Assembly (NCBI GenBank): GCA_965243135.1
Contig: OZ251539.1
Span: 3,648,001 to 3,712,000 of the forward strand
From: Alphaproteobacteria bacterium
Lineage (GTDB): Bacteria; Pseudomonadota; Alphaproteobacteria; MPNO01; UBA830
DNA: 64,000 nt
Reading direction: 5' to 3'
Every line of letters begins with the position of its first letter. Within the stretch, counting starts at the first letter, position 1. This document shows, piece by piece, positions 2,744 to 59,872 of the stretch. Both the position numbers and the translations under genes were made by a program. Under the pieces are notes generated by a model. It was given only the letters and a program-made list of their open reading frames with translations, searched no databases and was not told the DNA's origin.

Positions 2744-2809
2744 ATCGACGAACGCCGGTCTCGCGGGCGGGCGGAGCCGAAAAAAACGGCGCGGCGCAAG
2801 CGCCTGCTT

Positions 2810-2838
2810 TTGACAATTCCGCCGCGGCGGCCTACTCT
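2810..2838 (+). promoter_or_regulatory. sigma70-type promoter of AAA/PD-(D/E)XK copy 1, probably leaderless
   Basis: TTGACA-N17-TACTCT, then 6 nt to ATG 2845; same geometry before all four paralogs. Confidence 0.75.
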
Positions 2839-2844
2839 CTTCGA

Positions 2845-4378
2845 ATGACGAAGCGCATGCTGCCGACCGGCATGACGTCCCTCCGGAAAATCCGGACGAG
2901 AGGCTGCTACTACGTCGACAAGACGGACCATCTGCGCCGCCTCGTCGAAGGGGGCGACTACTATTTCCTGTCGCGTCCGCGCCGGTTCGGCAAGACCCTG
3001 CTGGTGGACACGCTCCAGAAGCTGTTCGAGGGAAGCGAGGAACTGTTCCGGGGCCTCGCCATACACGGCAAGTGGGACTGGTCGGCGCGCCGTCGTGCGG
3101 CTGGATTTCAGCGGCGTGGGCCGTTTCGATACCCCGGACGGGGTCCGGGGAACCGTGGAAAGGCAACTGGCGGCGACGGAGAGGCGCGCCGGCCTCGAAC
3201 CGGGTCCCGCCGGGGCGGCGGTCCGTTTCCACGAGTTGATCGAGGCCCTGCACGAGCGCACCGGGCGGCGGGCGGTCGTGCTGGTCGACGAATACGACAA
3301 GCCGATCCTGGACGCGCTCGGCGACCGGGAACTGGCGCTGGCCAACCGCGACTTTCTGCGCAGCCTGTACGGGGTGATCAAGGCTTCCGACGAGCAACTC
3401 CGTTTCGTTTTCCTGACGGGGGTGAGCAAGTTCTCGCAGGCGGGCCTGTTCTCGGGCCTGAACAACCTGATCGACGTCACGCTGGAGCCGGAGTTCTCGG
3501 ACATCTGCGGCTACACGGACGACGAGCTGGACACGGTCTTCGCCCCGGAACTCGAGGGCCTGGACCGGGACGAGGTCCGCCGCTGGTACAACGGCTATAA
3601 CTGGCGCGGGCCGGAGAGGGTCTACAACCCGTTCGGCCTGCTGCTGCTGTTTCGGCGGCGCGAGTTCCGCCCGTACTGGTTCCAGAGCGGCACGCCGACC
3701 TTCCTGGTCGAGACGCTGGCGCGCCGCGACCTGCCCACCCCGGACCTGGACGGCATGACCGGCAGCGAGAGCCTGCTGTCGTCCGTCGACGTGGACAATA
3801 TCTCGATCGAGGCGCTTCTGTTCCAGACCGGCTACCTGACCATCGCCGGCGAGGAGGACGGGCGCTACAGGCTGGGCTACCCGAACCTCGAGGTGCGCCG
3901 GAGCCTGGGCGAGGCTTTGCTGGAAGAACTGCTCCCGGCCGAGGCCCGCGAGGAGACGGAGAACCTGCGGCTGGGCGAACTGCTAGAAGCGAACGACTTC
4001 GAGCGCCTCGGGACCCTGTTCCGCGGCATCTTCGCCGCCATCCCGCACCAGTGGTACGCGACCAGCCCGGTCGCGAAATACGAGGCCCACTACGCGAGCG
4101 TCATCCACAGCTGCTTCCTGATGGAGGGCGTCGAGCCGGTCGCGGAGGACAGCGGCAGCCGGGGGCGCGCCGACATGGCGATCCGCGTCGGCGGGCGCGT
4201 CTACCTGTTCGAGTTCAAGGTGGTGGAGCGCGGACGGGAGGGAACCGCGATCGCGCAGTTGCGGGAGAAGGGCTATGCGGACAAGTACCGCCATCTCGGG
4301 CATTCGGTCCACCTGATCGGTGTGGAGTTCAGCCGGGCGGAGCGCAACGTCGTCGGGTTCGATTACGAAACCGCCTGA
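2845..4378 (+). pseudogene. AAA-ATPase-like + PD-(D/E)XK nuclease (PDDEXK_9 type), copy 1, frameshifted near 3090
   Basis: MTKRMLPTG..YYVDKT..LSRPRRFGKT in one frame; VLVDEYDKP, FLTGVSKF, YNP, GRADMAI..YLFEFK..KGYADKY in another; 5-bp deletion relative to copies 2 and 3. Confidence 0.85.
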
Positions 4379-4417
4379 AGCCGGACGAGTTCGACGTCCC
4401 GTTCGGACATTTCGACA

Positions 4418-4543
4418 GCCGCCTCCACGAAAGAACGCCGTCCGCGACGCGGGTTCGGCTTGCGCTTTGTCGAAGGCGGCAGCCGCTTCCAGCGGTTCGT
4501 CGCCTTGCGCGCCAGCAACTTGACGGGCCGCGGCGCCGCCAAG
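4418..4543 (+). repeat. 3' trailer repeat shared with the region downstream of copy 3 (23737-23850, minus)
   Basis: GCCGCCTCC.CGAAAGAACGCCG.CCGCGACGC..GTTCGG.TTGCGCTT.GTCGAAG..GGC...CGCCTTGCGCGCC.GC..CTTGAC aligns by eye. Confidence 0.8.
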
Positions 4544-4810
4544 CTGCACTGAGCCGCGCCTTGCCCCCCGGAGCTTGCGGCGCGGTCGCGTCCGGCCCGC
4601 TCCGGCACCCTCCCGGTTGAACATGCCCGCGTTCGGACAGCCGGAAAGCGGGCCCGGAAGCAAGCGCGAAAAAGGGCGCGGCGCAAACGCCTCAACTGCT
4701 TGACTTGCTTGCGGGCGGTGCTAGTTTCGCTCCCCTTGGCTCGGCAGGACGACAGTTGCCGCGCCGGATTCCGTGAACATTTTGGCCGGACGACAGTCGG
4801 CCGCCGGGGC

Positions 4811-12631: not shown

Positions 12632-12780
12632 AATCAGGTGGACCGCCCGCCCGAGATGACGTTACCTCGCCGTATAGCCCTTCTCCCGCAGCCGCGCGAT
12701 TTCCTCCCGCCCGCGCTCGACCGCCTTGAACTCGAACAGGTAGACGTATCGTCATGTTGACGCGCCCCGGCTGCCGCCGG
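12632..12780 (-). pseudogene. 3' relic of a fifth AAA/PD-(D/E)XK gene
   Basis: DNA matches the copy 1/3 3' end (GGCAGCCGGGGCGCG, GTCTACCTGTTCGAGTTCAAGG, GCGGGAGAAGGGCTA, GTCCACCTGAT) with indels. Confidence 0.85.
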
Positions 12781-12870
12781 TCTCGGAGGCTGGCGCGATT
12801 GAGACAGCTCTTGACGGCCTGTGTCGAAAGCGCTACGGAATTTTTCATATATCAAGTGTGGAGAGGTACA

Positions 12871-13968
12871 ATGTCGTCCGCATATGAAGAGACTGTATCC
12901 GACGTCACCGAAAATACCGATAACGTGGACGACGATTCCGAGGAGGATGAGCAAAGGAAGATCACCTATAGCATATCGAGCTATGGTGCGGATTATACGG
13001 CCGATAGTATCGTAAAACGACTTGATAATGAAGCATTTTACTTTCCTGAATTTCAGAGATCCTATGTCTGGACTCGCCCTCAAGCATCTCGTTTTATCGA
13101 ATCTCTCCTCCTCGGACTTCCTGTTCCGGGAGTATTTCTTGCGAAAGAGGAAGAAACACACAAGCATTTGATCATAGATGGACAACAAAGGCTTAAATCT
13201 CTTCAGTTCTTTTATCAAGGACGTTTTCGAGATAATAAGAAGTTCGGTCTTCAGAAAGTCGATGAAAGATGGAACGGGAAATCAATAGATGATTTGCGCG
13301 AAGAGGACCGTCGGCGTCTCGATGACTCGATCATTCATTGTACAATATTCAAACAAAACAGACCAGAAGAAGACGATACCAGCTTTCATGACGTTTTTGA
13401 TCGACTTAATACCGGCGGAGTGAAACTATATCCTCAGGAGATTCGAAACTGCGTAGATCACGGTAATCTTACGAAGCTTCTGAACGCCTGCAATGAAATA
13501 GAGGTTTGGAGACGTATTTTTGGAAAAGAAAGCGTTAGATTGAAAGATCAAGAGCTGATATTGAGATTTTTTGCGTTTTATATGAACGAAAACTACCAGA
13601 GACCCATGAAAGAATTTCTTGATCGGTTTTCCCATAAAAATCGAAAATTAAGCGATGAACGATACGAAACGATGCTTTGCCTGTTCGAAAATACAATAAA
13701 CACCGTAGGAAACGCTGTCGGAGAAAAAAAAGCATTTCGACCTAGTAAAAATCTCAATGCCGCGGTATTCGAGGCGGTTATGGTTGGCGTGGCCCGCCGA
13801 ATGGAAGCGAAAGAAGCGAGCGATCTTACCAAGGATGCGGTGAAGAAAGCTTATCTTGAGCTCGTCAAAAATGGGGAGTTTCTTGACGCCTGCAGTCAGC
13901 ATTCATCCGACGAGAAAAATGTCAGAAAACGGCAAAGATTAGCGAGACGTGCGTTCGCCAGTGCATAA
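12871..13968 (+). CDS. DUF262 (ParB/GmrS-like) domain protein
   Basis: PEFQRSYVW, SRFIESLLLGLPVP, IIDGQQRL, FDRLNTGG; AT-rich; GGAGAGG RBS. Confidence 0.9.
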   Translation: MSSAYEETVSDVTENTDNVDDDSEEDEQRKITYSISSYGADYTADSIVKRLDNEAFYFPEFQRSYVWTRPQASRFIESLLLGLPVPGVFLAKEEETHKHLIIDGQQRLKSLQFFYQGRFRDNKKFGLQKVDERWNGKSIDDLREEDRRRLDDSIIHCTIFKQNRPEEDDTSFHDVFDRLNTGGVKLYPQEIRNCVDHGNLTKLLNACNEIEVWRRIFGKESVRLKDQELILRFFAFYMNENYQRPMKEFLDRFSHKNRKLSDERYETMLCLFENTINTVGNAVGEKKAFRPSKNLNAAVFEAVMVGVARRMEAKEASDLTKDAVKKAYLELVKNGEFLDACSQHSSDEKNVRKRQRLARRAFASA

Positions 13969-14452
13969 AGGTGGGGATTTGAAGTTCGAAGATGATCAAC
14001 TTAGGGTTAAACTCGTTTCCGAAGCGCTGGAAGATCTTCCAGACAACGAGGAGATACGAAGCCATTGGACTCGATATCTGTGCGTCCTGACGGCGGGCCT
14101 TCTTGAAACCGGTCTGCGTGAAATAATAATGGAATATGTTCGAAGAAATTCAGATCAACGGATTCAAAAAAAGCTTAGCGGCAGACAACTATCGCCGCCG
14201 AATCCAAAAAGCGGCGTAATTATCTCTACATTGTCCGGTTTCGACAAAAAATGGGGAGAGGAGATAAAAAAATACATCACGGACGAAAAAGGGGACAAGA
14301 TCGACAGCGTAATGAATAATCGGAATAGAATAGCGCATGGTCAAGATGTTTCGGTTACTTCTAGAGCGCTAAATTCGCAATATCAAGAGGTCGTTGAAGT
14401 TGTCAAATTCGTAAATGATCTTGTATTGACGCAGTCGGACGTGGCGGAATGA
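13961..14452 (+). CDS. HEPN-domain putative RNase (MAE_28990/RiboL-PSP-like)
   Basis: YLCVLTAGLLE, NP, R-X4-H motif RNRIAH; overlaps or abuts the DUF262 stop; start GTG 13961 or TTG 13979. Confidence 0.85.
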   Translation: MHKGGDLKFEDDQLRVKLVSEALEDLPDNEEIRSHWTRYLCVLTAGLLETGLREIIMEYVRRNSDQRIQKKLSGRQLSPPNPKSGVIISTLSGFDKKWGEEIKKYITDEKGDKIDSVMNNRNRIAHGQDVSVTSRALNSQYQEVVEVVKFVNDLVLTQSDVAE

Positions 14453-15082
14453 ATCCGAAGGCATTCTTGTTTGATGCATTGCAAGACGGAAGGTAGGCGT
14501 GAAACGTAGCCCATCGATGAAACAGCGTGTTCCTCGCTTTGAATGAAAACGGGGAATTGATGATTGCGCGGCGGCTTGGCGTTCGTCGTCCCACAGCTGT
14601 GGAGGGCGTTTTTCGGGACCTGTCGGAAAACCCGTTCGAGATCGAGGTGCTTTCAAGGTATCGCGAACGGATCGACTGGCAACGATTTGAATCCGGTTCC
14701 CTCCCCGCCCAGCACTGCCGTGCGACGCTTCCGCTTCCCAACGCACCTCGTCCCGCCGCCGGGGGCGGCGTCGCCGACGGCAAAGCCCCCTCGTCCGTCG
14801 GTCGCTTCGAAGCAAAAATTCGGTATGAGGGCACAAGGATCCCATGTCCGGTTCCCGGGACAAATTTTCTTCGTCTCCCGGGTAGCAAACGCTTACCCCA
14901 CAAAGAGACTCCTACGCTGTTCCGAACGTCTTCGCCGAGTCGCCGGATGTCCTCTCCTCTCAGGATGAGCTGGCCAGCATCGGCGCGGCGTCGGATTGAC
15001 TCGAGCCGGCCGACAGCGTATACGGCGAGCGTTCCGTTCGTGCGCCGACGTTCGGGATTCCATCAGCCGCAGGATGCCGTTC

Positions 15083-21827: not shown

Positions 21828-23360
21828 TCAGACGGTCTCGAACTCGAACCCGACGATGTTGCGTTCTTCCCGGCCGAACTCCACCCCGATCAGGTGGACC
21901 GGCACGTCCGAACGCCGGTACTTGTCCGCGTAGCCGCGCTCCCGAATCTGCGCCAGCGCCCGCCCCTTCCCGTCCGCGACCTTGAATTCGAACAGGTAGA
22001 CGTTGCCGTTGTACAGGACCGCGAGGTCCGAGCGGCCGCGCGCCGTGCTCTCCTCCGCGCGGACGTCCATCCCCGCGGCCACGAAGTGCGAATAGAACAC
22101 GCTCGCGTAGTGCGCCCCCGCCATGCCCGTGTTCGCGTACCACTCGTTCGGGATGCTCGCCAGGAACGCCCGGAACAGATTCTCAAGGCCCGCGAAGTCG
22201 TTCGCCCGCATCAGGCGGCGCAACTCCCGGCTCTCCGCCGCGACCGCGACGTCGGGCGCCATCGCCCTCAGCAGAAGCGCGTTCAGGCTGCGCTTCACCT
22301 CCTGGTTCGGGTAGTCCAGCTGGTAGAAGCGCGTGTCCTCGTCCTGCTCCTCGCCGACGATGGTCAGGTAACCGGTCTGGAACAGCAGCGTCTCGACGGG
22401 AATGCTGTCGACGTCGATGGCCGACAGCAGCGCGTCGTCCGCAACCAAGCTCTCCAGGGCCGGCGGCGCGAACCGGCGCCGCGACAGAAGGTCGACGAGA
22501 AAGGTCGGCGTGCCGGTCTCGAACCAGTGCGCCTCGAACTGGCGACGCCGGAAAAGCAGCAGAATGTCGTGCGGGTTGTAGACCTTGTCCGCGCCGCGCC
22601 AGTTGTAGCCGTTGTACCAGCGCTGAACTTCCTTCCGGTCCAGGCCCTCGAGTTCCGGGGCGAAGACCGCGTCCAGTTCCGCGTCCGTGTAGCCGCAAAT
22701 GGCCGAGAACTCCGGCTCCAGCGTGATGTCGATCAGGTTGTTCAGGCCCGAGAACAGACCCGCCTGCGAGAACTTGCTAACTCCCGTCAGAAAAACGAGA
22801 CGGAGATGCCTGTCGCAGTCCTTGATCGCCCCGTACAGGCTGCGCAGGAAGTCGCGGTTGGCCCGCGCCAATTCCCGGTCGCCGAGCGCGTCCAGGACCG
22901 GCTTGTCGTATTCGTCCACCAGTACGACCGCCCGCTGCCCGGTGCGCTCGTGCAGGGCCTCGATCAATTCCCCGAAACGGTTCGACGCCTCGACGGGATC
23001 CGGTTCGAGGCCGGCGCGCCTCTCCGCCGCCGCCAGCTGCCTTTCCACGGTTATCCGAACCCCGTCCGGGACGACGAAATTGCCCCTGCTGAAACTGATC
23101 CGCACGACCGGACGGCGCGCCGACCAGTCCCACCCGCCGTGCACGGCGAGGCCCCGGAACAGCTCCTCGCTGCCCTCGAACAGTTCCTGCAGCGTGTCCA
23201 CCAGAAGGGTCTTGCCGAACCGGCGCGGACGCGACAGGAAATAGTACTTGCCCCTCTCGACGAGGCGGCGCACATGGTCCGTCTTGTCGACGTAGTAGCA
23301 GTCCATCCCCCGGATCTCCCGGAGGGAGGAAAAGCCGATCGGAAGCATGCGTTTCGCCAT
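21828..23360 (-). CDS. AAA-ATPase-like + PD-(D/E)XK nuclease, copy 2
   Basis: LSRPRRFGKT, VDEYDKP, GRSDLAV..YLFEFK..RGYADKY; intact; promoter TTGACG(23395-23390)-N17-TACTCT. Confidence 0.9.
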   Translation of the reverse strand: MAKRMLPIGFSSLREIRGMDCYYVDKTDHVRRLVERGKYYFLSRPRRFGKTLLVDTLQELFEGSEELFRGLAVHGGWDWSARRPVVRISFSRGNFVVPDGVRITVERQLAAAERRAGLEPDPVEASNRFGELIEALHERTGQRAVVLVDEYDKPVLDALGDRELARANRDFLRSLYGAIKDCDRHLRLVFLTGVSKFSQAGLFSGLNNLIDITLEPEFSAICGYTDAELDAVFAPELEGLDRKEVQRWYNGYNWRGADKVYNPHDILLLFRRRQFEAHWFETGTPTFLVDLLSRRRFAPPALESLVADDALLSAIDVDSIPVETLLFQTGYLTIVGEEQDEDTRFYQLDYPNQEVKRSLNALLLRAMAPDVAVAAESRELRRLMRANDFAGLENLFRAFLASIPNEWYANTGMAGAHYASVFYSHFVAAGMDVRAEESTARGRSDLAVLYNGNVYLFEFKVADGKGRALAQIRERGYADKYRRSDVPVHLIGVEFGREERNIVGFEFETV

Positions 23361-23630
23361 CCGAAGAGAGTAGGCCGCCGCGCCGGAGCCGTCAAGGAGG
23401 AGGCGTTTGCGCTGCGCCGTTTTTGGCCGGTTGTCGTCCGTTCGACGCCCCGCGAGGCCGCCCGTCGGCAGGTCGGCACGCGCAGGCGGGCGGCGGCGAA
23501 GCAGGACCGTTGCTCCGGCGCCGCACGGCAAACTCGGGGCGAACCAGGCCATGCGGTCGCGGCGCGGGCTGGGGCGGAATCTGCGAAAACGGCGTTCTCG
23601 GCGTGGAAAATTCGCAGTTTTCCACGCCCG
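23361..23630 (-). repeat. About 270-bp leader repeat, paired with 25406-25680
   Basis: Nearly identical non-coding DNA upstream of copies 2 and 3, containing the promoter, conserved motif and palindrome. Confidence 0.9.
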
Positions 23631-23866
23631 AAGCGAGGCAATTCTCCGCCATGCTGTCGGCGTTTCAGGACGTCGGGAACGGCGCGGGAGAGCCTGCAGG
23701 CGGACGCCGCTGCCGGGCCGGGTTCCCGCCCGCCCCCTTGGCGGCGCGTGCAGTCAAGCCGCCGGCGCGCAAGGCGGCGACCCGGCCGCCGTCTTCGACG
23801 AAGCGCAAACCGAACTTGCGTCGCGGGCGGCGTTCTTTCGCGGAGGCGGCCGTGTCGGGAAGCCGT

Positions 23867-25405
23867 TCAGGCGGCCTCGCAATCGAAGCCGACGACGTTG
23901 CGCTCCTCGCGGCTGAACTCCACCCCGATCAGGTGGACCGAATGTCCGAGACGGCGATACTTGTCCGCGTAGCCCTTCTCACGCAACTGCGCGATCGCGG
24001 TCCCCTCCCGCCCGCGCTCCACCACCTTGAACTCGAACAGGTAGACGCGCCCGCCGGCGCGGATCGCCATGTCGGCGCGCCCCAGGCTGCCGCTGTCCTC
24101 GGCAATCGGCTCGAGGCCCTCCATCAGGAAGCAACTGTGGATGACGCTCGCGTAGTGGGCCTCGTACTTCGCGACAGGGCTGTTCATGTACCACTGGTGC
24201 GGGATGGCGGCGAAGACGCCGCGGAACAGGGTCCCGAGGCGCTCGAAGTCGTTCGCCTCCAGCAGTTCGCCCAGCCGCAGGCGCTTCGTCTTCTTGCGCG
24301 CCTCGACCGGGAGCAGTTCTCCCAGCAGGGCCTCGCCCAGGCTCCGGCGCACCTCGAGGTTCGGATAGTCCAACCGGTAGTGCCCGTCCTCCTCGCCGAC
24401 GATGGTGAGGTAGCCGGTCTGGAACAGAAGCGCTTCGATCGAGATATCGTCCACGTCGAAGGTCGAGAGCAGGCTCTCGCTGCCGATCATGCCGTCCAGG
24501 TCGGGAGTGGGCAGGTCGCGGCGCGTCAGCGTCTCGACCAGGAAGGTCGGCGTGCCGCTCTGGAACCAGTAGTTGCCGAACCTGCGCTCGGCGAGCAGCA
24601 GCAGAATGCCGAACGGGTTGTAGAGCTTCTCCGGCCCGCGCCAGTTGTAGCCGTTGTACCAGCGGCGGATCTCGTCCCGGTCCAGGCCCTCGAGTTCCGG
24701 GGCGAAGACCGCGTCCAGCTCGTCGTCCGTGTAGCCGCAGATGTCCGAGAACTGCGGCGCCAGCGTGATGTCGCGGAGGTTGTTCAGGCCCGAGAACAGG
24801 CCCGCCTGCGAAAACTTGCTCACCCCCGTCAGGAAAACGAAACGGAGATGCCTGTCGCAGGCCTTGATCACTCCGTACAGGCTGCGCAGGAAGCTGCGGT
24901 TGGCCAGCGCCAGATCCCGGTCGCCGAGCGCGTCCAGGATCGGCTTGTCGTATTCGTCCACCAGCACGACCGTCCGCTGTCCGGTGCGCTCGTGCAGCGT
25001 CCTTATCAGGCGCCGGAAACGGACCGCCGCCCCGGCGGGACCCGGTTCGAGGCCGGCCTGCATCTCCGTCTCTTCCAGCTGCGCTTCTACGGTTTCCCGA
25101 ACCCCGTCCGGAGTGTCGAAATCGCCCACGCCGCTGAAATCCAGCCGCACGACTGGATGGCGCGCCGACCAGTCCCACTTGCCGTGCACGGCGAGGCCTC
25201 GGAACAGCTCCTCGCTTCCCTCGAACAGCTCCTGCAGCGTGTCCACCAGCAGGGTCTTGCCGAACCGGCGCGGCCGCGACAGGAAGTAGTAATCTCCTCC
25301 TTCGACGAGGCGGCGCAGATGGTCCGTCTTGTCGACGTAGTAGCAGTCTCTCGTCCGGATTTTCCGGAGGGAGGTCAAGCCGATCGGAAGCATGCGTTTC
25401 GCCAT
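23867..25405 (-). CDS. AAA-ATPase-like + PD-(D/E)XK nuclease, copy 3
   Basis: Same motifs as copy 2; intact; C-terminal half very similar to copy 1; promoter TTGACG(25440-25435)-N17-TACTCT. Confidence 0.9.
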   Translation of the reverse strand: MAKRMLPIGLTSLRKIRTRDCYYVDKTDHLRRLVEGGDYYFLSRPRRFGKTLLVDTLQELFEGSEELFRGLAVHGKWDWSARHPVVRLDFSGVGDFDTPDGVRETVEAQLEETEMQAGLEPGPAGAAVRFRRLIRTLHERTGQRTVVLVDEYDKPILDALGDRDLALANRSFLRSLYGVIKACDRHLRFVFLTGVSKFSQAGLFSGLNNLRDITLAPQFSDICGYTDDELDAVFAPELEGLDRDEIRRWYNGYNWRGPEKLYNPFGILLLLAERRFGNYWFQSGTPTFLVETLTRRDLPTPDLDGMIGSESLLSTFDVDDISIEALLFQTGYLTIVGEEDGHYRLDYPNLEVRRSLGEALLGELLPVEARKKTKRLRLGELLEANDFERLGTLFRGVFAAIPHQWYMNSPVAKYEAHYASVIHSCFLMEGLEPIAEDSGSLGRADMAIRAGGRVYLFEFKVVERGREGTAIAQLREKGYADKYRRLGHSVHLIGVEFSREERNVVGFDCEAA

Positions 25406-25680
25406 CGTAAGAGAGTAGGCCGCCGAGCCGGAGCCGTCAAGGAAGGGGCGCTTGGAGGCGTTTGCGCTGCACCGTTTTTTGCCGGCTGCCGTCCGTTCGA
25501 CGCCTCGCGAGGCCGCCTGTCGGCAGGTCGGCACGCGCAGGCGGGCGTCGGCGGAGCAGGACCGTTGCTCCGGCGCCGTGCGGCAAACTCGGGGCGAACC
25601 AGGCCATGCGGTCGCAGAGCGGGCTGGGATCTGCGAAAACGGCGTTCTCGGCGTAGAAAATTCGCAGTTTCCCACGCCCG
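25406..25680 (-). repeat. Leader repeat, second copy
   Basis: Direct repeat of 23361-23630. Confidence 0.9.
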
Positions 25681-25882
25681 AGCATGAAAATTCCGCGCCC
25701 CTGAAAGCTGTCCGCATTCCAAGACGTTACGAACAGCGCACGCGGCTTTATTTCAAGACCTCGAGAGCAGCGCAAGAAGCTCGAACGGACATTCGATCAG
25801 GCCCCCCGGGAAAGACCGGCACCGACGAATTCCGGGGAACGAATCCGATGTCGCAATTTCCGGAGATGGGTTACAATGCGTC

Positions 25883-33876: not shown

Positions 33877-34129
33877 GGTGATACTCTCCTAATCATGACC
33901 ACCATTCGTGCAACACAGCTAAAACTAGCGTTATGTCCCTTAAATGGATACCTGCTATCAACTCCGAAATGCAATACCGGTGGTCGGCAATCCCTGTCGC
34001 CAAGGCAGTATGGGGATGGGTTGGCCGGTGAGTCAAGGCACTGGGGCGGCAGGGGCGAACGCCCCCGTCGCAGCAAAAAAATCCCTCCCTGCCCCGTGGC
34101 CGGGCCGACGCGCAGAGCGCGGGCCGCTG

Positions 34130-43182: not shown

Positions 43183-44352
43183 TCAAGCCGCGGCCGCGAA
43201 CTCGATGTCGCCGACGCGCTTCAAAGGCGCGGCGGTGATGGCGTCGGACAGCGGATATTCGTGGTCGCCGGGATAGAGGATCCACAAGTGTTCGAGTCCG
43301 AGGTCTTCGATGACGACGTGCATGGACTTCGTCGTTCTGGGGGCGTCCGTGCATTTGAATTCGAAGCCCCAGCGCCGCCCCCGCCGCAACAGCATGAGAT
43401 CCAGTTCGGCGCCGCGCCGGGTAGCGTAGAAATAGGCTTCGCGCTCGCCGTGAGCGATGAGGGTCTGCTCCAGGGCGAACCCTTCCCAGCTGGCGCCGTA
43501 ACGCGGATGGACCGGCAATTCCTCCGGCTCTTCCAGTCCCAACAGGAAATGAAGCATGCCGCTGTCCCTCAGATAGATCTTTGGAGATTTGACGATCCGC
43601 TTGCCGAGATTCTCGAACCACGGCGGCAATATCCGGATCATGTAGGTGCCCGCCAGCAGATCGCGATAGTGGTTGACGGCCGTTACGCTCGCGTCCATCG
43701 AGCGGCCCAGTTCCGAAGCGTTCCACGTCTGCCCGTGATAATGCGCCAGCATTCTCCAGAAGCGGCGCAGCGACTCGGGCGGCACGCGCGGCCGCAGGCC
43801 CGGGACGTCCCGTTCCAGAAACGTGCGGGTGAACGCCTCCATCCAGCGCCTCCATCCGTCCGTCGACGGGGCCAGGTAGGCTCTCGGAAATCCGCCGCGC
43901 ATCCACAATCGATCCTGATTCTCCGGTCCCGCTTCCGCGAGCGAAAAACCGCCGACTTCCACGAACGAAATCCGGCCGGCCAGAGTTTCCGAGACGCCCC
44001 GGATCAGGTCCCAGGAAGCGCTGCCAAGGAGCAGAAAGACCGCTTTCCGGCCCGGATCGTCGCAGATGGGCCGCAACGTCTCGAACAGTCCCGGGAGTCG
44101 CTGAACCTCGTCGATGACCACCAGACCTTCCGCCTGGCGGAGCAGCCGCTCGGGAGTTCCAGTCAACGCTTCCCGAACCGCGCCCACTTCCAGATCGAAG
44201 ACGGTGGACGGCCCGGACCAGACGGACGCCGCTTGCGCGGCCAAGGTTGTTTTTCCTGTCTGGCGCGCGCCGAGCAGCGCGACTGCCGGCGCTTCGGAGA
44301 GACCGTTGAGAGCTGCGGCGAGCAGGTCCGGCCGTGCGATTTTTGGTTGCAT
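43183..44352 (-). CDS. AAA+ ATPase with DUF4143 domain (COG1373 type)
   Basis: GARQTGKTT, IDEVQ, LLGSAS, RGGFP, KSPKIYLRDSG, WEG, ELDL...GFEFK. Confidence 0.88.
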   Translation of the reverse strand: MQPKIARPDLLAAALNGLSEAPAVALLGARQTGKTTLAAQAASVWSGPSTVFDLEVGAVREALTGTPERLLRQAEGLVVIDEVQRLPGLFETLRPICDDPGRKAVFLLLGSASWDLIRGVSETLAGRISFVEVGGFSLAEAGPENQDRLWMRGGFPRAYLAPSTDGWRRWMEAFTRTFLERDVPGLRPRVPPESLRRFWRMLAHYHGQTWNASELGRSMDASVTAVNHYRDLLAGTYMIRILPPWFENLGKRIVKSPKIYLRDSGMLHFLLGLEEPEELPVHPRYGASWEGFALEQTLIAHGEREAYFYATRRGAELDLMLLRRGRRWGFEFKCTDAPRTTKSMHVVIEDLGLEHLWILYPGDHEYPLSDAITAAPLKRVGDIEFAAAA

Positions 44353-44544
44353 ATCCACTTCTTGAAATAAGATATGCAACGATAATTAAGACGAAAAGAG
44401 CGCGCGATCAAGCGTTCCCGCGCATGAAGCGGGCATCCGCGACATCGCCGCCGCGCCGTTCGGCGCGAAACCGCTCGGGTTTCGCGGACGGCTCCCGGCG
44501 GCAGCCCGCTGCCGCCGTCCCTCGAACGCCGCGGGCGGCGGCTC

Positions 44545-47273: not shown

Positions 47274-47275
47274 CC

Positions 47276-50663: not shown

Positions 50664-51713
50664 TTAACGGTCGCCGCGACTGCGGTCAGCGCCGCTCCCC
50701 GACACGCAGGACAGCAACTCGTCGCCGGAGGCGCTGTCGATCAGATGGTCGCCGACCTCGTCGAGCCGGCGCGGGTCGTCGATGCTGGCCAGCAAGGCTT
50801 CGAGGCCCGCAGCCGTCCCGGCATCGAACTTCCGCGCCGCCTGACGCAACAACATCGCCCGTTGTCGCTCCAGGAACTCCCCGCGAACTTCCTCGCGGCC
50901 CTGCTCCAAGCCCTGCTCCAAGCCCTGCTCCAAGCCCAGCTGTCGACTCTCAAAGAGCGCCGTGTCCAAAAAAGATCCCATTTCCTTCAGATCTCCCTCT
51001 TTCGCCAACTCCCCGAACCGCGCTTTCACCTCGGGCGCCACGTCCTTGCTCTGCATCACCTCGTGCCGCAGCAACTCCTTGAACAGATCGGCAAGGCTCG
51101 CATCCGTCTCCGGGTCCACCGCCAGCGCTTGCAGATCTTCTCCGACCGTCGCCCAGTCGCGCTGCGCAAACCGGGCCCGCAACGACAACAGGTTCCGCCT
51201 CGGCAGATCCTCGACATTCAACCGGTGAATGTCAATCAGAAAAAAACGCTGCCGCGGCTGATACGCTTCCAGAAAGCCGCCTGGCGGCGCCACCAGCAAT
51301 TCCGTCGCCGCAGTCCAGGGCGGGCGGCCAGTGTAGATCACTATCGGCAGCACCGGCGGCAATGGGGCACCCTTCGGCAACTCTTTGTTCCGACGGAGCT
51401 TCCGATGCAACTGCCCGACATACGCATGCATCCGCGACGCCATGTCGCTGTCCACAGTGGACTGGAACTCCAGCACCAGAAGCAGGTAGAGCCATCCCTG
51501 CGCTCCGGCGAGGCGGAAACGGACGCGCCAGACCGCATCGCCGAAACTCTGGTCCAGACCGTCGTCGACATACTGGGTCGACAGCTGTTGCATCTCCCCG
51601 AAATCGCAGGCTTCGACCACCTCCGTCGGCATGAGGCCGCGCAGCACGTCCACGACCGCGCCGGGGATATCGAACAACTTCTTCATCCAGGCGTCTTCGA
51701 AATTTGCGAACAT
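50664..51713 (-). CDS. Rpn/YhgA-family PD-(D/E)XK nuclease
   Basis: GDAVWRV, LVLEFQSTVD..MA.RM..Y, LPPVLPIVIYTG, GLEQ repeats, RQAARKF tail. Confidence 0.9.
   Translation of the reverse strand: MFANFEDAWMKKLFDIPGAVVDVLRGLMPTEVVEACDFGEMQQLSTQYVDDGLDQSFGDAVWRVRFRLAGAQGWLYLLLVLEFQSTVDSDMASRMHAYVGQLHRKLRRNKELPKGAPLPPVLPIVIYTGRPPWTAATELLVAPPGGFLEAYQPRQRFFLIDIHRLNVEDLPRRNLLSLRARFAQRDWATVGEDLQALAVDPETDASLADLFKELLRHEVMQSKDVAPEVKARFGELAKEGDLKEMGSFLDTALFESRQLGLEQGLEQGLEQGREEVRGEFLERQRAMLLRQAARKFDAGTAAGLEALLASIDDPRRLDEVGDHLIDSASGDELLSCVSGSGADRSRGDR
50899..50934. repeat. 12-bp tandem repeat (CCCTGCTCCAAG)x3 encoding LEQG repeats in Rpn
   Basis: Directly visible. Confidence 0.9.
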
Positions 51714-52608
51714 CCCGGTTTCCAGTCGTGCGAAGCAAAATGAGCGCCACCATACCACGGCCGCCCGTTCGATGGTCGTTCCAGTCCTCCCGCAGCCGAT
51801 CAAAGCGTTTCCAGCTCTCCTGCCAGGCGAGAACTGACGTTTCGTCGCGGTAGCGGAACGCAGATCAGACGTTCTATGGTGATAGCTGAGAACCTCGTGT
51901 GATTTAACGTTGCTTCCCCGCGGAACCGGCGTTTGCCATGACGGCGAGGTTCTCGATCCTTTCGGAAACGTGACCGTAGAAGCGCTGTCCATCCGCCGTC
52001 TCCCCTGCGGTCATGCGAACCCGCCGGAGTTCGCCGATCGACCGCCCCGGCGAAGCGGTGGTGCGTTCGGACGTCCCTGTCTCCTTTGAGGGGCCGCTCG
52101 CATTCGTAGCGGATACAGGTTCGAAGCGGGTCGGAAGCGCCGGCACGGTCTTGAGGTTTCGCCTGCCTTCCGCCCCCGACGCCAACCAGACCGCCTTGCG
52201 GCGCAGCTTCTTGAGACCTCGCCGACCAACGCCCTGCGCCTTCGTTCCTCAACGCTACCGGCTTTGGCGGCGACGGTTCGTTCAAGCGCATCCGCCTGCT
52301 TCCGAACGGAGGCCTCGGCGCGGGCTTCGGAAATGCCGAAGTTGCGGCGACTCGAATGTGGAGCTTTGGCGCCTGCAAAGGGCGGCGCTTTTTTCGCCTT
52401 CGGTTCCCGACGCGACGGGTTGCGCTCCCGGTCGGCTGCGAAACTCCCCGGAAGCCGACGCGACGCCGCTTTCCGGGCGCCCGTACTTTGTTCTCGGCGA
52501 GGGCGCGCCGCTCGTCGGCGGGGCGCGCGGCAGCCGACGGGAACGGCGACACGGTCTCGCGGTTTTCGCGCCGGGCCGCCTCTCGCGCCTCGCAGGCTGG
52601 ACGCCGGC

Positions 52609-57781: not shown

Positions 57782-58125
57782 GAGCCAAGGCGCGCGGCCC
57801 ACCACGGAGACGCGCGCCTCACGCGCCGTTCGTCATCTCTCGAAATGCGCGCCGCCTTCATGGGACGGGAAATTTCCCCGCTTCGGACAACCGCGGATTT
57901 TCCGGCGGGGACCACGGTTTCCGGAGACGCCCCCGTCCAGACGCCGCCCCTACGGCAAACGGCCGCGCCGGGCAACATTCCGGCGAAAGCGGGGCATCAC
58001 GTGCGATCGGGAATACGTCGACGCTGAACCGGGGAGGAGACCCATGTTGCGACGAATCGTCCGCCTGCAACCGCGCCTCCAGCCCGTCGCTTCGTCAAGA
58101 ATCGCCGCGGCGCAGCGCAACCGCC

Positions 58126-58154
58126 TTGACGGCTCCGGTGCGGTCACCTACTCT
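58126..58154 (+). promoter_or_regulatory. sigma70-type leaderless promoter of AAA copy 4
   Basis: TTGACG-N17-TACTCT-N6-ATG. Confidence 0.75.
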
Positions 58155-58160
58155 CCTCGG

Positions 58161-59702
58161 ATGATGAGACGCATGCTTCCGACCGGCATGACCTCCCTCC
58201 GGGAGATCCGGGAGCTGGACTGCTACTACGTCGACAAGACAGACCATGTGCGCCGCCTCGTCGAGAGAGGCAAATTCTATTTCCTGTCGCGTCCGCGCCG
58301 GTTCGGCAAGAGCCTTCTGGTGGACACGATGCAAGAGTTGTTCGAGGGAAGCGAGGAGCTCTTCCGGGGGCTGGACATCCATGGACGATGGGACTGGTCA
58401 ACCCGCCATCCAGTGCTGCGGATCGACTTTAGCGGGCGGACCTTCACCGAACCCGGCCACTTGGAGAGAAACCTCGCGGCTCAGTTAGGCGCCGCCGAAC
58501 GGCGGGCGGGAATCGAGGCGCTGCACCCGGACGCCCCGGAGCGCTTTGCGCATCTGATCTCGGCCCTGCACGAGCGCACCGGGCAGCGGACGGTCGTTCT
58601 GGTGGACGAATACGACAAGCCGATTCTCGATGCGCTCGGCAAGCCGGAACTGGCGCACGCCAACCGCGATTTCCTGCGCGGACTTTATTCGGCCATCAAG
58701 TTCAGCGACAGGCAGCTCCGTTTCGTTTTTCTTACGGGGGTGAGCAAGTTCTCGAAGGCGGGTATTTTCTCGGGCCTGAACAACCTGCGCGACATCACGC
58801 TGGCGCCGGAGTTGTCGGACATTTGCGGCTACACGGACGCGGAGCTGGACGCGGTCTTCGCCCAAGAACTCGATGGCCTGGACCGGGACGAAATCCGCCG
58901 CTGGTACAACGGCTATAACTGGCGCGGCGCTGAGAAGGTCTACAACCCGTTCGATATTCTCCTGCTCTTCGAAACGCGCGAATTCAAGGCGCACTGGTTC
59001 GAGACCGGGACGCCGCGCTTTCTCGTCGATCTTCTGTCGCGGCGCCGGGTCGCGCCTCCGGCCCTGGAGAGCATGGTCGCGGACGATTCGCTGCTGTCGG
59101 CCTTCGACGTCGACGACATCTCGATCGAAGCGCTTTTGTTTCAGACCGGCTATCTGACCATCGTCGGGGAAGAAGCCGTCGGCGTCCGGAGCCTGTACCG
59201 GCTGGACTATCCGAACTACGAAGTGAAGTTCAGCCTGAACGGGCGGCTGCTGCGCGCGATGTCGCCGGCAACGGGAGGGGAGGCGATGCGGCAGGCGGAA
59301 CTTGCAAGGCTGACGGCGGAGGACGATCCGGAAAAGGTGAGGACGCTGTTCGAGGCGTTCTTCGCGAGCGTTCCTCACGACTGGCACCGGAAGAACGAGC
59401 TCTACGAGGGCTATTGGGCGGCCCTCGTCTACTCGCACTTCGCGGCGGCGGGGCTGGACGTTCGGGTCGAGGAAGCGACCGCCCGCGGGCGCCTGGACAT
59501 GGCTGTGCTTAGTCCGGGATGCGTGCATCTGTACGAGTTCAAGGTCGTGGGTCCGGGGCAGGAGGGCCAAGCGCTGGCGCAGATGCGGGAGCGCGGCTAC
59601 GCGGACAAGTACCGGCATCTCGGGGTGCCGATCCGGTTGATCGGCATGGAGTTCGGCCGGGAGGAGCGCAACATCGTCGGGTTCGAGTTCGAAACCGCCT
59701 GA
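58161..59702 (+). CDS. AAA-ATPase-like + PD-(D/E)XK nuclease, copy 4
   Basis: LSRPRRFGKS, VDEYDKP, GRLDMAV..LYEFK..RGYADKY; intact. Confidence 0.9.
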   Translation: MMRRMLPTGMTSLREIRELDCYYVDKTDHVRRLVERGKFYFLSRPRRFGKSLLVDTMQELFEGSEELFRGLDIHGRWDWSTRHPVLRIDFSGRTFTEPGHLERNLAAQLGAAERRAGIEALHPDAPERFAHLISALHERTGQRTVVLVDEYDKPILDALGKPELAHANRDFLRGLYSAIKFSDRQLRFVFLTGVSKFSKAGIFSGLNNLRDITLAPELSDICGYTDAELDAVFAQELDGLDRDEIRRWYNGYNWRGAEKVYNPFDILLLFETREFKAHWFETGTPRFLVDLLSRRRVAPPALESMVADDSLLSAFDVDDISIEALLFQTGYLTIVGEEAVGVRSLYRLDYPNYEVKFSLNGRLLRAMSPATGGEAMRQAELARLTAEDDPEKVRTLFEAFFASVPHDWHRKNELYEGYWAALVYSHFAAAGLDVRVEEATARGRLDMAVLSPGCVHLYEFKVVGPGQEGQALAQMRERGYADKYRHLGVPIRLIGMEFGREERNIVGFEFETA

Positions 59703-59872
59703 TGCCGTGATCCGCAGGCGGACCAGTTGTCGGCGGCCGCCTCCGCCAAATGCCGCGAGCAGACCGGGTTTCGGATCCGGTTGGCGTGCGCCCGCCGAGA
59801 GCGTCCAGAGCGGGACGCCGAGCGGACGGCAGTCCGAAAAAAACGGCGCAGCGCAAACGCCGCAGCCTCCGC

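What the first reader, a model, noticed from the sequence alone, without database searches (positions are those of the whole stretch)
2780..59861. Dispersed AAA-ATPase/PD-(D/E)XK cassette family inserted ahead of host promoters
Seen: four full-length paralogs (2845, 23360, 25405, 58161) and a relic (12632-12780) in 64 kb, each intact copy with its own promoter and shared non-coding flanks, and no transposase or integrase next to them. Knowledge: rpoN-hpf and hemY-tRNA-Thr are normally adjacent in alphaproteobacteria, and both pairs are split here by a copy. The AAA-ATPase_like + PDDEXK_9 family is expanded in some host-associated bacteria and its function is unresolved. Inference: these are self-contained cassettes that spread to defined intergenic sites, possibly a dispersed, diversifying nuclease (anti-phage) system.
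Basis: partly seen in the sequence, partly recalled or inferred. Interest (0 to 1): 0.78.

Follow-up and report, generated by a model that had tools for sequence, protein, structure and literature searches.

The report
Hundred-copy ATPase-nuclease gene cassette family
The four copies are a small sample of about a hundred intact copies of one promoter-plus-gene cassette for an ATPase-nuclease of unknown function, which fills 3.6% of this bacterial genome and keeps reshuffling itself by recombination.

Summary
The window holds three intact DUF1703 genes (PF09820 ATPase + PF08011 PD-(D/E)XK nuclease). A fourth copy (2845-4378) is broken by a 5-nt deletion, and there is a relic at 12633-12799.

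Genome-wide there are 98 intact copies and about 70 broken or partial loci, covering 217,958 bases (3.57%). What the copies share is a tight cassette: a family-specific TTGACG-N17-TACyCT-N6-ATG promoter-like element (predicted leaderless mRNA), the ORF, and 0-80 nt of tail.

- **Origin:** 96 of the copies form one clade, so the family expanded in this lineage.
- **Evolution:** the copies are mosaic (gene conversion) and under purifying selection (dN/dS about 0.3), with all catalytic motifs kept.
- **Mobility marks:** I found no general terminal inverted repeats and no association with transposases or integrases.
- **Sites:** in distant relatives rpoN-hpf/ptsN and hemY-tRNA-Thr are adjacent and hold no copy. 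The window copies sit between REP-like repeats and the next gene's promoter.
- **Function:** an anti-phage role is untested. PADLOC gives no hit and the neighbouring genes are mostly housekeeping.

DUF1703 expansions are already described (25 paralogs in Cardinium), so this is a new and very large member of a known kind. A recurrent frameshift hot spot remains unexplained.

The parts
2785..2804 (+). 3' motif of a dispersed REP-like repeat, directly upstream of the copy 1 promoter
   Evidence: Motif scan, (genome position 3650785).
2810..2844 (+). Promoter-like block of copy 1 (-35 TTGACA-type hexamer, 17-nt spacer, TACTCT, 6 nt, ATG)
   Evidence: Alignment anchored on the ATG. Not called by the consensus scanner (on the other copies).
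2845..4378 (+). Copy 1, a DUF1703 pseudogene. A 5-nt deletion between 3094 and 3095 splits it into residues 1-83 and 81-513.
   Evidence: (I7 and I1 are in registers 5 nt apart).
4672..4691 (+). Second copy of the REP 3' motif (the variant also found after Rpn-like genes), followed by the hpf promoter-like site; hpf ATG at 4811
12633..12799 (-). Relic of a copy (residues about 431-493). It abuts a low-GC island carrying a NsnA/PD-T4-2_A-like DUF262 gene (12754-13968) and a HEPN gene (13949-14452).
21828..23360 (-). Copy 2, intact, 510 aa
23361..23398 (-). Promoter-like block of copy 2
23399..23660 (-). REP-A repeat whose 3' end lies 39 nt before the copy 2 ATG. Read on the + strand, its end is a terminator-like hairpin plus T run (23402-23418).
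   Evidence: (D5, D13).
23867..25405 (-). Copy 3, intact, 512 aa. It is in tandem with copy 2 but only 68.5% identical to it.
25406..25443 (-). Promoter-like block of copy 3
25454..25681 (-). REP-A repeat upstream of copy 3 (92-93% identical to the one upstream of copy 2)
   Evidence: (D5, D13).
58126..58160 (+). Promoter-like block of copy 4, preceded by a REP-motif variant at 58106-58125
58161..59702 (+). Copy 4, intact, 513 aa. This copy was used for the structure model.
59790..59870 (+). 3' part of REP-A (profile positions 185-265) between copy 4 and the tRNA-Thr promoter-like site
   Evidence: (I17, I19).
59913..59988 (+). tRNA-Thr(CGT), the host gene downstream of copy 4

Best explanation
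**What it is.** The window copies belong to one amplified family of a compact cassette of about 1.6-1.7 kb. The cassette has three parts:
- a family-specific sigma-70-like promoter, placed so that transcription should start at or next to the ATG (leaderless);
- a 505-522-aa DUF1703 protein, made of an ORC/Cdc6- and STAND-like ATPase with a winged-helix region and a C-terminal PD-(D/E)XK nuclease;
- a short tail.

**How it got there.** The family expanded inside this lineage from one ancestor to 98 intact and about 70 broken or partial loci.

**Shown:**
- The unit that copies share ends at the -35 region and at or shortly after the stop codon.
- Copies lie in intergenic spacers among ordinary genes.
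- Copies carry no transposase, integrase or general terminal repeats.
- Copies are mosaics of one another.
- Intact copies are under purifying selection with all catalytic motifs kept.

**Inferred:**
- Spread and reshuffling go through homologous recombination or gene conversion. This is helped by dispersed REP-like repeats that sit just upstream of host promoters and bracket the four window sites.
- The protein is an ATP-controlled DNA endonuclease.
- The many maintained, differing paralogs serve as a recognition repertoire in a genetic conflict, that is, defence-like surveillance of DNA.
For: **Family membership and motifs.** PF09820 and PF08011 score above their cut-offs in all copies. Among 96 paralogs, and across 101 diverse homologues, these motifs are kept: Walker A RPRRFGK[ST], Walker B DEYD, and E416, D446, E459-x-K461, Q474.

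**Scale.**
- 159 matches in the genome.
- 98 intact ORFs, 97 of them starting with ATG at the aligned start.
- 217,958 bases, 3.57% of the genome, in 88 clusters.

**Cassette boundaries.**
- The depth of shared sequence rises from 19 to 121-138 between -80 and -40. It falls to 21 by +60.
- The 26-nt promoter block has 97 hits in the genome, all next to a family member.
- For 86 copies whose best paralog lies more than 20 kb away, collinear similarity ends a median 46.5 nt before the ATG and 42.5 nt after the stop. In 38 of the 86 it ends within 19 nt of the stop.

**Expansion in this lineage.** 96 copies form a pure clade with support 1.0 in a tree of 196 sequences.

**Dispersal rather than local duplication.**
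- Only 11 of 98 copies have their best paralog within 10 kb.
- Of 45 copies with a neighbouring copy within 3 kb, only 7 have that neighbour as their best paralog.

**Mosaicism.**
- 80 of 96 copies have a different best paralog in each third of the CDS.
- Exact shared runs have a median of 155 nt and a maximum of 436 nt.

**Selection.** Between nearest neighbours, median dN/dS is 0.32 and median dS is 0.147.

**Repeats.**
- REP-A has 153 hits in the genome, 39 of them within 500 nt of a family member.
- Its 3' end lies 38-53 nt before the ATG of 17 of 98 copies.
- 30 of the 32 motif hits near copies are in the orientation of the gene.

**Empty sites in relatives.**

**No link to recombinases.** 13 of 60 recombinase or transposase hits lie within 5 kb of a cluster, against 11.5 expected by chance. 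No RAYT was found.

**Fold.**
- The AlphaFold2 model has pLDDT 94.5.
- Residues 4-360 match archaeal ATPase_2 proteins: 2fna_B with Z 15.8 and 2qen_A with Z 15.7. Next come NLRs (Z 12-13), Avs3 (11.6) and BrxC (11.2).
- The C-terminal domain matches the CinB and CidB nuclease domains (Z 10.6 and 9.5).
Against: **Promoter and expression**
- The promoter is inferred from conservation only. The consensus scanner finds no site.
- No RNA run was available.

**Relatives**
- No close relative could be reached. RpoN is at most 62% identical in the genomes searched.
- So empty sites are shown only as gene order. Exact insertion boundaries are not shown.

**Confounding by gene conversion**
- Gene conversion can itself produce the single clade, the tight homology boundaries and the low dS.
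- The age and mode of the original dispersal therefore remain open.

**REP-A**
- It abuts only 17 of 98 intact copies.
- The points where the downstream partial REPs begin vary (profile positions 94-227).

**Defence-like role: no support from any test here**
- PADLOC, NCBIfam and PDB sequence searches give nothing.
- 43 of 70 sampled neighbour ORFs are ordinary metabolic or housekeeping genes. Only 5 look like defence or toxin-antitoxin genes.
- No 30-codon window has dN/dS above 0.69.

**Decay**
- About 30% of loci are broken, which also fits a selfish birth-and-death process.
Confidence: 0.45

Rival explanations
1. Selfish, self-propagating nuclease gene that works like homing. The DUF1703 ATPase-nuclease itself cuts at or near intergenic repeat sites. 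Repair from an occupied site then copies the promoter-plus-ORF unit into the broken site. The family would be a transposase-free mobile gene and not a benefit to the host.
For: - The cassette is self-contained, with precise boundaries.
- Best paralogs lie megabases apart.
- The window sites are bracketed by direct copies of one repeat motif.
- About 30% of loci are decayed.
- Distribution is patchy, with separate expansions in other genomes: 5 of 78 genomes of the order, and 10-19 matches in each of five genomes from other phyla.
- In G002 all 4 copies carry one and the same frameshift yet sit at four loci. Spread therefore does not need an intact copy in cis.
- In G004 the slot after rpoN holds another multi-copy PD-(D/E)XK gene, Rpn/YhgA-like.
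Against: - No pair of copies is near-identical. The highest identity is 97.7% at protein level and the lowest dS is 0.031.
- Copies stay intact and constrained (dN/dS 0.32) long after duplication. This is not expected for insertions that are neutral to the host.
- REP-A flanks only a minority of copies.
- No cleavage site is known.
Confidence: 0.25
2. An old, static multigene family. Ordinary segmental and tandem duplications were followed by genome rearrangement. Concerted evolution (gene conversion) then gives the look of a sharply bounded, dispersed cassette. The protein would have a cellular DNA-transaction role such as repair or recombination.
For: - The family clade is deep: mean root-to-tip distance 0.40 and median pairwise identity 0.72.
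- Mosaicism is pervasive.
- Homology ends exactly where family-wide homology ends, as conversion tracts must.
- Neighbours are mostly housekeeping genes.
Against: - Two conserved gene pairs are split only in this lineage.
- 88 separate clusters lie among unrelated genes.
- Tandem neighbours are rarely each other's closest relatives.
- Most relatives have no copy at all: 73 of 78 genomes of the order. This argues against a core cellular role.
Confidence: 0.17
3. Cassettes moved in trans by a site-specific recombinase encoded elsewhere, as in an integron or an integrative element. The repeat motif would serve as the attachment site.
For: - Same-strand arrays have short spacers of 109-800 nt.
- A direct repeat of one motif lies on both sides of the window copies and also after Rpn-like genes.
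- The genome has 24 tyrosine-recombinase matches.
Against: - Each cassette has its own promoter-like block.
- No recombinase lies at the arrays, and recombinase or transposase hits are no more frequent near clusters than chance predicts.
- The starts of the downstream partial repeats vary and are not fixed.
- The motif is found near only 32 copies.
Confidence: 0.08
4. Host-directed effector nucleases, as proposed for the DUF1703 proteins of Cardinium.
For: - The runs that hold this DNA are labelled sponge metagenome.
- The nuclease domain resembles the CinB and CidB nuclease domains.
- PMC6387759 (passages read) predicts secretion for the Cardinium paralogs.
Against: - I saw no N-terminal signal-like sequence. 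The Pfam ATPase domain starts at residue 7, and the N-terminus is conserved and polar.
- No secretion-system genes appear among the sampled neighbours.
- I ran no secretion prediction.
Confidence: 0.05

Closest known systems
DUF1703 gene-family expansion in Cardinium hertigii cCpun (PeerJ 2019, PMC6387759; abstract and passages read)
   Same: - Same two-domain architecture (PF09820 + PF08011).
- Expansion specific to one lineage, in a host-associated bacterium.
- Paralogs from one organism cluster together.
- Recombination between paralogs.
- Function unknown.
   Different: - 25 paralogs there, with mean identity 39%. Here there are 98 intact copies plus about 70 broken or partial loci, with median identity 72%.
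- That paper predicts secretion. I saw no sign of it here.
- In the passages I read, it does not describe a promoter-bearing cassette, links to dispersed repeats, split conserved gene pairs or a frameshift hot spot.
DUF1703 family as defined by Knizewski et al. 2007 (PMC1913061, DUF1703 section read) and listed in Steczkiewicz et al. 2012 (PMC3424549, one table passage read)
   Same: - Walker A with arginines (RPRRFGKS type).
- Walker B DEYD.
- The PD-(D/E)XK motifs I-IV.
- A link to the archaeal ATPase family PF01637.

All of these are reproduced here.
   Different: Those papers describe the protein only. They mention 9 copies in Methanospirillum hungatei and duplications in Bacteroidetes. 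They do not cover cassette structure or expansion on this scale.
Archaeal ATPase_2 proteins SSO1545 (2fna) and PAB2304 (2qen); ORC/Cdc6; STAND/NLR and Avs ATPases
   Same: Fold of residues 4-360: P-loop domain, helical lid and winged helix. Z is 15.8 and 15.7 for 2fna_B and 2qen_A, and 10-13 for NLRs, Avs3, CED-4 and ORC.
   Different: - No TPR, LRR or WD sensor repeats.
- The effector nuclease is C-terminal.
- Sequence identity is only 10-14%.
- No function carries over from fold alone.
Rpn/YhgA-like 'Transposase_31' PD-(D/E)XK nucleases (their multi-copy, recombination-promoting character is recalled, not read here)
   Same: - Another PD-(D/E)XK gene family present in many copies without transposon ends.
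- 16 matches in this genome.
- Several are followed by the same repeat motif.
- One fills the slot after rpoN in relative G004.
   Different: No ATPase domain and a different Pfam family. The copy number is far lower.
Free-standing homing endonuclease genes of phages, and integron gene cassettes (both recalled)
   Same: - Intergenic position.
- Compact units that carry no transposase of their own.
- Same-direction arrays (integrons).
- Spread by copying into related DNA (homing).
   Different: - No known target site or cleavage.
- Each unit has its own promoter-like block, unlike integron cassettes.
- No integrase at the arrays.
- Copies are 80-98% identical, not near-identical.

Membership tests
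DUF1703 (AAA-ATPase_like + PDDEXK_9) | N-terminal PF09820 match above the curated cut-off | tested here: met
   196.6-205.4 bits against a cut-off of 26.1 for copies 2-4. The two pieces of copy 1 score 94.2 and 86 bits.
DUF1703 (AAA-ATPase_like + PDDEXK_9) | C-terminal PF08011 match above the curated cut-off | tested here: met
   52.6-61 bits against a cut-off of 25.5.
DUF1703 (AAA-ATPase_like + PDDEXK_9) | Atypical Walker A (RPRRFGK[ST]), Walker B DEYD, and nuclease motifs E...D...ExK...Q | tested here: met
   R44, P45, F48, G49, K50 and D149 are invariant. E150, Y151, D152, E416, D446, E459, K461 and Q474 are at least 90% conserved in 101 sequences. The same holds among the paralogs of this genome.
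Insertion sequence / transposon | Terminal inverted repeats at the ends of the unit | tested here: not met
   Inverted 10-mers between the two flanks occur in 52 of 98 copies, against 38 of 98 in a reversed control. A 12-13-nt inverted match occurs only in 20 of 98 copies, 19 of them in one subfamily.
Insertion sequence / transposon | An element-encoded transposase or integrase | tested here: not met
   The single ORF matches only PF09820 and PF08011. Hits to PF00589, PF00665, PF01609 and PF02371 lie within 5 kb of 13 of 88 clusters: 13 hits against 11.5 expected by chance.
Insertion sequence / transposon | Near-identical copies from recent transposition | tested here: not met
   Identity to the nearest paralog has a median of 91.8% and a maximum of 97.7% at protein level. 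The lowest dS is 0.031.
REP/RAYT system | A Y1 (RAYT) transposase in the genome | tested here: not met
   PF01797 has 0 matches in the genome. The same search finds matches in 6 of 14 control genomes.
Integron gene cassettes | Promoterless cassettes next to an integrase, each ending in a fixed recombination site | tested here: not met
   Every intact copy has the promoter-like block. No integrase lies at the window arrays. The starts of the downstream repeats vary.
Catalogued anti-phage defence systems (PADLOC-DB 2.0) | A match to any PADLOC protein model | tested here: not met
   No family at E <= 0.01 for copies 2, 3 and 4. In the same call the neighbouring DUF262 gene and the DUF4143 gene did match.
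STAND / Avs-type defence NTPases | STAND NTPase plus a repeat-type sensor domain plus an effector | tested here: inconclusive
   The fold resembles Avs3 (Z 11.6), NLRs (Z 12-13) and CED-4 (Z 11.0) over residues 11-370. However, the 513-aa protein has no repeat domain. No sequence-level membership was shown.
Homing endonuclease gene | Cleavage of the empty target site, followed by copying by repair | not testable with these tools
   This needs enzyme assays or strain crosses. Only gene-order empty sites in distant relatives are available.

The most novel reading that the evidence does not exclude
The DUF1703 cassette is a new kind of transposase-free mobile gene. Its own ATP-gated PD-(D/E)XK nuclease makes the break, at REP-type repeats beside promoters and at a hot spot in its own 5' part. 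That break seeds copy-and-paste by recombinational repair. The result is a dispersed, constantly reshuffled set of about 100 expressed paralogs, which the host may then have co-opted as a DNA-recognition repertoire.
Probability: 0.15. Interest if true: 0.85.

Novelty: new member of a known kind. Interest (0 to 1): 0.6.

Why it matters
DUF1703 is a very large family: 16,818 clusters at 50% identity match at E <= 0.001. Its architecture has been known since 2007, but its function is still unknown. It expands repeatedly in host-associated bacteria.

A single closed genome with 98 intact, mutually recombining copies under selection acts as a natural mutagenesis series. It shows which parts are fixed (the ATPase and nuclease active sites). 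It also shows which parts vary: the helical insert between strands 2 and 3, the region before the winged helix, and the linker.

The genome also yields concrete DNA candidates for what the enzyme might act on: the REP-like repeat beside promoters, and the recurrent deletion site. If the cassette proves to spread by its own nuclease, or to act as an immune repertoire, a long-standing unknown family would gain a role.

Tried and rejected
**Alignment and methods**
I replaced it with blastn depth profiles.

**Terminal repeats**
- Rejected as a general feature.

**Programmed ribosomal frameshift at the recurrent deletion**
- Rejected on reasoning only. The 5-nt and 7-nt deletions would need shifts in opposite directions.

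**Sequence libraries**
- PADLOC, NCBIfam and PDB sequence searches gave no match for the family.
- Rfam at gathering thresholds found only the tRNA, so the repeats belong to no curated RNA family.

**Sequencing runs**
- No RNA holder is listed.
- The four runs laid are contigs that break at the repeat borders. None bridges rpoN to hpf, so they settle neither the empty site nor the 5-nt deletion.
- Runs X3 and X7 show no cover over 13341-14007. I draw nothing from that.
- The joints listed have sides of only 20-30 nt, and I read them as repeat artefacts.

**Searches for closer relatives**
- The JGI metagenome scan with RpoN found nothing above 51% identity.
- The same-genus genomes are only about 50% identical in RpoN.

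**Earlier findings**
- A sequence look-up returned nothing.

**Literature**
- Searches for PDDEXK_9, AAA-ATPase_like, PF09820, PF08011 and DUF1703, and for PDDEXK + sponge + symbiont, found no paper on this expansion.
- Supplements were not searched.
- One search gave nothing relevant.
- One search failed on a term format.

**A possible 'solo' left boundary**
- The sequence near genome position 42358 proved to be another dispersed repeat next to a copy, not a scar.

Full report
**1. The observation**

The window has high GC content. At the stated positions there are four genes with PF09820 (AAA-ATPase_like) followed by PF08011 (PDDEXK_9).

- Copy 2 (21828-23360, minus strand, 510 aa), copy 3 (23867-25405, minus strand, 512 aa) and copy 4 (58161-59702, plus strand, 513 aa) are intact.
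- Copy 1 (2845-4378) is not intact. Its repeat matches to copy 3 lie in two registers 5 nt apart (I7, I1). An alignment shows a 5-nt deletion between 3094 and 3095, so residues 1-83 and 81-513 read in different frames.
- The relic is real. Bases 12633-12746 match 4198-4317 in inverted orientation at 84-90%. By tblastn it covers residues 431-493.
- The relic abuts a 42%-GC island that carries a NsnA/PD-T4-2_A-like DUF262 gene and a HEPN gene.

**2. Scale**

The window lies in a closed 6.10-Mb genome.

- A protein search of that genome gives 159 matches.
- tblastn and ORF checks give 98 intact copies. Of these, 97 are 505-522 aa long and one is 609 aa. 97 start with ATG at the aligned start.
- Family matches cover 217,958 bases, 3.57% of the genome. 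They fall into 88 clusters and 168 gene-level loci, of which 127 are at least 1,400 nt long.
- Many copies stand in same-strand arrays with spacers from 109 nt upward.

**3. The repeated unit**

- Depth of shared sequence: the number of genomic places matching each position jumps from about 19 at -80 to 121-138 from -40 onward. It falls from about 140 inside the gene to 64, 56, 37 and 21 over the first 80 nt after the stop.
- Promoter-like block: anchored on the ATG, the copies share CTTGACGGCTCCGGCGCGGCGGCCTACyCTCTTCGrATG. That reads as a TTGACG hexamer, a 17-nt spacer, TACyCT, 6 nt and the start codon.
- Specificity: a 26-nt piece of the block occurs 97 times (up to 3 mismatches), always beside a family member. 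A tail core occurs 53 times, always beside one.
- Start codon: there is no in-frame start codon inside the block and no room for a Shine-Dalgarno site. Homologues from other genomes begin at the same methionine.
- Reading: I therefore read the block as a promoter for a leaderless mRNA. This is inference. The consensus scanner calls no promoter there, because the -10 matches TATAAT at only 3 of 6 positions. No RNA run is available.
- Other genomes: in two other genomes with expansions (G004 with 13 loci read, G036 with 7), the paralogs share their own upstream and downstream non-coding flanks. Those flanks have purine-rich sites before the ATG and lack this promoter block.

**4. The flanks**

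Beyond the unit, the flanks are mostly dispersed repeats that are not specific to the family.

- The upstream flank (-300 to -42) of 84 of 98 copies also matches places more than 700 nt from any family member. The same is true of the downstream flank (+70 to +320) of 62 of 98 copies.
- I call one of these repeats REP-A. It ends in an A run followed by GGCGCAGCGCAAACGCC.
- The 20-nt end motif occurs 98 times (up to 3 mismatches), against 5 in a reversed-genome control. 32 of the hits lie within 400 nt of a copy, and 30 of those are in the orientation of the gene.
- A profile of REP-A finds 153 copies, 39 of them within 500 nt of a family match. In 17 of 98 intact genes its 3' end lies 38-53 nt before the ATG, that is, 3-18 nt before the -35 hexamer.
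- Away from the family, the same repeat typically ends just before promoter-like sequences of other genes.
- Read on the opposite strand, its end is a terminator-like hairpin with a T run.
- A second repeat (27 hits, 12 beside copies) behaves similarly.
- At all four window sites the unit lies between two direct copies of the REP end motif. The second copy is followed at once by the promoter-like site of hpf, of the CapD-like gene, or of tRNA-Thr.

**5. Are the insertions specific to this lineage?**

- rpoN site: in 10 relatives' loci, no family match lies between rpoN and ptsN. hpf follows rpoN directly in 4 loci, and the rpoN-ptsN gap is at most 332 nt in 5 more.
- The exception is G004. There, a 1.7-kb gap holds an Rpn/YhgA-like (PF04754) gene, and a DUF1703 copy lies 1.7 kb beyond ptsN, between unrelated genes.
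- hemY site: in 11 relatives' loci, tRNA-Thr(CGT) lies within 466 nt of the HemY match in 9, at 1,127 nt in one, and was not found in one. In this genome the distance is 2,131 nt.
- Caveat: the relatives are distant (RpoN at most 62% identical), and no closer one was found. These results show gene order, not exact boundaries.

**6. How the family evolves**

- Origin: in a tree of 196 proteins, 96 copies form one pure clade (support 1.0). The tree holds 98 from this genome, 20 from G004 and G036, and 78 from other genomes. I left out L131 and dropped one sequence shorter than 470 aa. The sister group is mostly alphaproteobacterial. Two divergent copies fall apart from the clade.
- Identity: median pairwise identity is 0.72. 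Identity to the nearest paralog has a median of 0.918 and a maximum of 0.977.
- Location of relatives: only 11 of 98 copies have their most similar paralog within 10 kb. Of 45 copies with a neighbouring copy within 3 kb, only 7 have that neighbour as their best match. Copies 2 and 3, for example, are 68.5% identical.
- Mosaicism: 80 of 96 copies have a different best paralog in each third of the gene, and only 2 have the same one throughout. Exact shared runs reach 436 nt between copies that are about 93% identical overall.
- Boundaries: for 86 copies whose best paralog is more than 20 kb away, collinear similarity stops a median 46.5 nt before the ATG and 42.5 nt after the stop.
- Selection: it is purifying. 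Between nearest neighbours, median dN/dS is 0.32 and median dS is 0.147. The highest 30-codon window is 0.69, at residues 271-300, and residues 76-120 reach 0.61-0.66.
- Fast-changing codons: 23 codons change faster than 1.5 times the synonymous rate, mostly in residues 1-110 and 166-281. This count is crude and is confounded by recombination.
- Caveat: gene conversion can itself produce the single clade and the sharp boundaries.

**7. A recurrent frameshift**

- Nine loci in this genome carry a deletion at one and the same site, GCGCGCC[ATCCG]GTCGTGCGG, at codons 83-85. Seven have the same 5-nt deletion, including window copy 1, and two have a 7-nt deletion. The loci have different sequence backgrounds.
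- In relative G002, all 4 copies examined carry a 7-nt deletion at the same site. A fifth locus there aligns only upstream of the site and was not scored.
- At least four of the frameshifted copies here keep an otherwise open 430-codon reading frame.
- The site lies at the end of the most homogenised 5' block. The similarity between copies 2 and 3 drops from 89% to 73% there (D1, D3).
- Two explanations remain: a mutational or recombinational hot spot, or spread of a null allele by gene conversion. I could not decide between them.

**8. The protein**

- Model: the AlphaFold2 model, built from 101 sequences, is confident (pLDDT 94.5, pTM 0.92).
- ATPase part: residues 4-360 match two archaeal ATPase_2 proteins best (2fna_B: Z 15.8, rmsd 4.1, 281 aligned; 2qen_A: Z 15.7). 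Next come plant NLRs (12.3-12.7), Avs3 (11.6), BrxC (11.2), MalT, CED-4, ORC/Cdc6 and TnsC (about 10).
- Nuclease part: residues 298-513 match the CinB and CidB nuclease domains (Z 10.6 and 9.5).
- Motifs: the Walker A, Walker B and PD-(D/E)XK residues are conserved, as in the 2007 description of the family (PMC1913061, section read).
- Variable parts: these are the two-helix insert between strands 2 and 3, the stretch before the winged helix, and the linker to the nuclease. That these parts contact DNA is my inference from ORC-type ATPases and was not tested.

**9. Context and distribution**

- Recombinases: no recombinase travels with the family. Of 60 matches to PF00589, PF00665, PF01609 and PF02371, 13 lie within 5 kb of a cluster, against 11.5 expected. 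No Y1/RAYT gene exists in the genome.
- Neighbours: I sampled 70 ORFs flanking 35 clusters. The sample took every second one of the 74 clusters that had both flanking ORFs called, and left out the two window clusters.
  - 43 are ordinary metabolic or housekeeping genes.
  - 18 have no Pfam match.
  - 3 are transposase-like.
  - 5 are defence- or toxin-antitoxin-like (DUF4143 twice, ThsB_TIR, Fic, Xre/MbcA).
  - 1 is a family fragment.
- Orientation: the next ORF downstream is co-oriented in 49 of 72 clusters, based on crude ORF calls.
- Within the order: PF09820 occurs in 5 of 78 genomes.
- Elsewhere: proteins 51-68% identical occur in records titled as Gammaproteobacteria, Vicinamibacterales, Latescibacterota, Spirochaetia, Binatia and others. 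Five such genomes have 10-19 matches each.
- Source of the DNA: the runs that hold the window's DNA are labelled sponge metagenome. In them the family region has 150-600 times the summed contig depth of its flanks. This depth is not a copy number.

**10. Reading**

The descriptive part is solid. This is a cassette family amplified in this lineage, recombining, under selection and free of transposases.

How it spread is not shown. My best reading, at 0.45, is recombination-driven copy-and-paste helped by the repeats beside promoters, with the maintained and differing paralogs serving as a DNA-recognition repertoire. The rivals are:

- a selfish, homing-like nuclease gene (0.25);
- a static old family homogenised by gene conversion (0.17);
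- movement in trans by a recombinase (0.08);
- host-directed effectors (0.05).

DUF1703 expansions with recombination are already in print for Cardinium (PMC6387759). This is therefore a new, very large member of a known kind. It adds several features: the promoter-bearing minimal unit, the link to REP-like repeats, the split conserved gene pairs and the frameshift hot spot.

Noticed in passing
window 3090-3100; genome-wide 9 loci; L048-L051: There is a recurrent frameshifting deletion at one site (codons 83-85). It is a 5-nt deletion in 7 loci and a 7-nt deletion in 2 loci of this genome. All 4 copies examined in relative G002 carry a 7-nt deletion at the same place. Several of the affected genes are otherwise open. 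The site sits at the end of the homogenised 5' block.
   Followed up: partly
window 12750-14520: A 42%-GC island carries a NsnA/PD-T4-2_A-like DUF262 gene (12754-13968) and a RiboL-PSP HEPN gene (13949-14452). It appears to have replaced most of a DUF1703 copy, leaving the relic.
   Followed up: partly
window 59938-60004 and 63747-63813: A 67-nt direct repeat (93%) of the 3' half of tRNA-Thr brackets about 3.8 kb of lower-GC DNA. Inside are internal repeats and an IS110-type (PF02371) fragment with a stop codon at 61263-61430. This looks like a decayed integrated element at the tRNA.
   Followed up: partly
window 50664-51992 (-); 16 matches genome-wide; L012:5139-6149: An Rpn/YhgA-like PD-(D/E)XK family (PF04754) is also multi-copy. 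Several copies are followed about 1 kb downstream by the same REP end motif that follows DUF1703 copies. In relative G004 such a gene occupies the slot between rpoN and ptsN.
   Followed up: partly
window 43183-44379 (-): This AAA_14 + DUF4143 gene matches the PADLOC candidate PDC-S01. The genome has 22 DUF4143 matches, so it is a second expanded ATPase family.
   Followed up: partly
window 29000-34200: A low-GC stretch (42-44%) is interrupted by a 68%-GC segment at about 32000-33000 that holds an HTH_32 ORF. The low-GC ORFs have only weak matches (AAA_22/ATPase_2, UDG). It may be another acquired island.
   Followed up: no
window 23597-23625 and 25647-25676: A near-perfect 11-bp-stem palindrome lies in the spacer upstream of REP-A at copies 2 and 3. 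There are 6 hits genome-wide, 3 of them away from the family.
   Followed up: partly
genome 1566603 and 1568752 (minus strand): Two tandem DUF1703 copies are only about 42% identical to the rest. They have a different upstream region and fall outside the main clade, so they represent a second lineage in the same genome.
   Followed up: no
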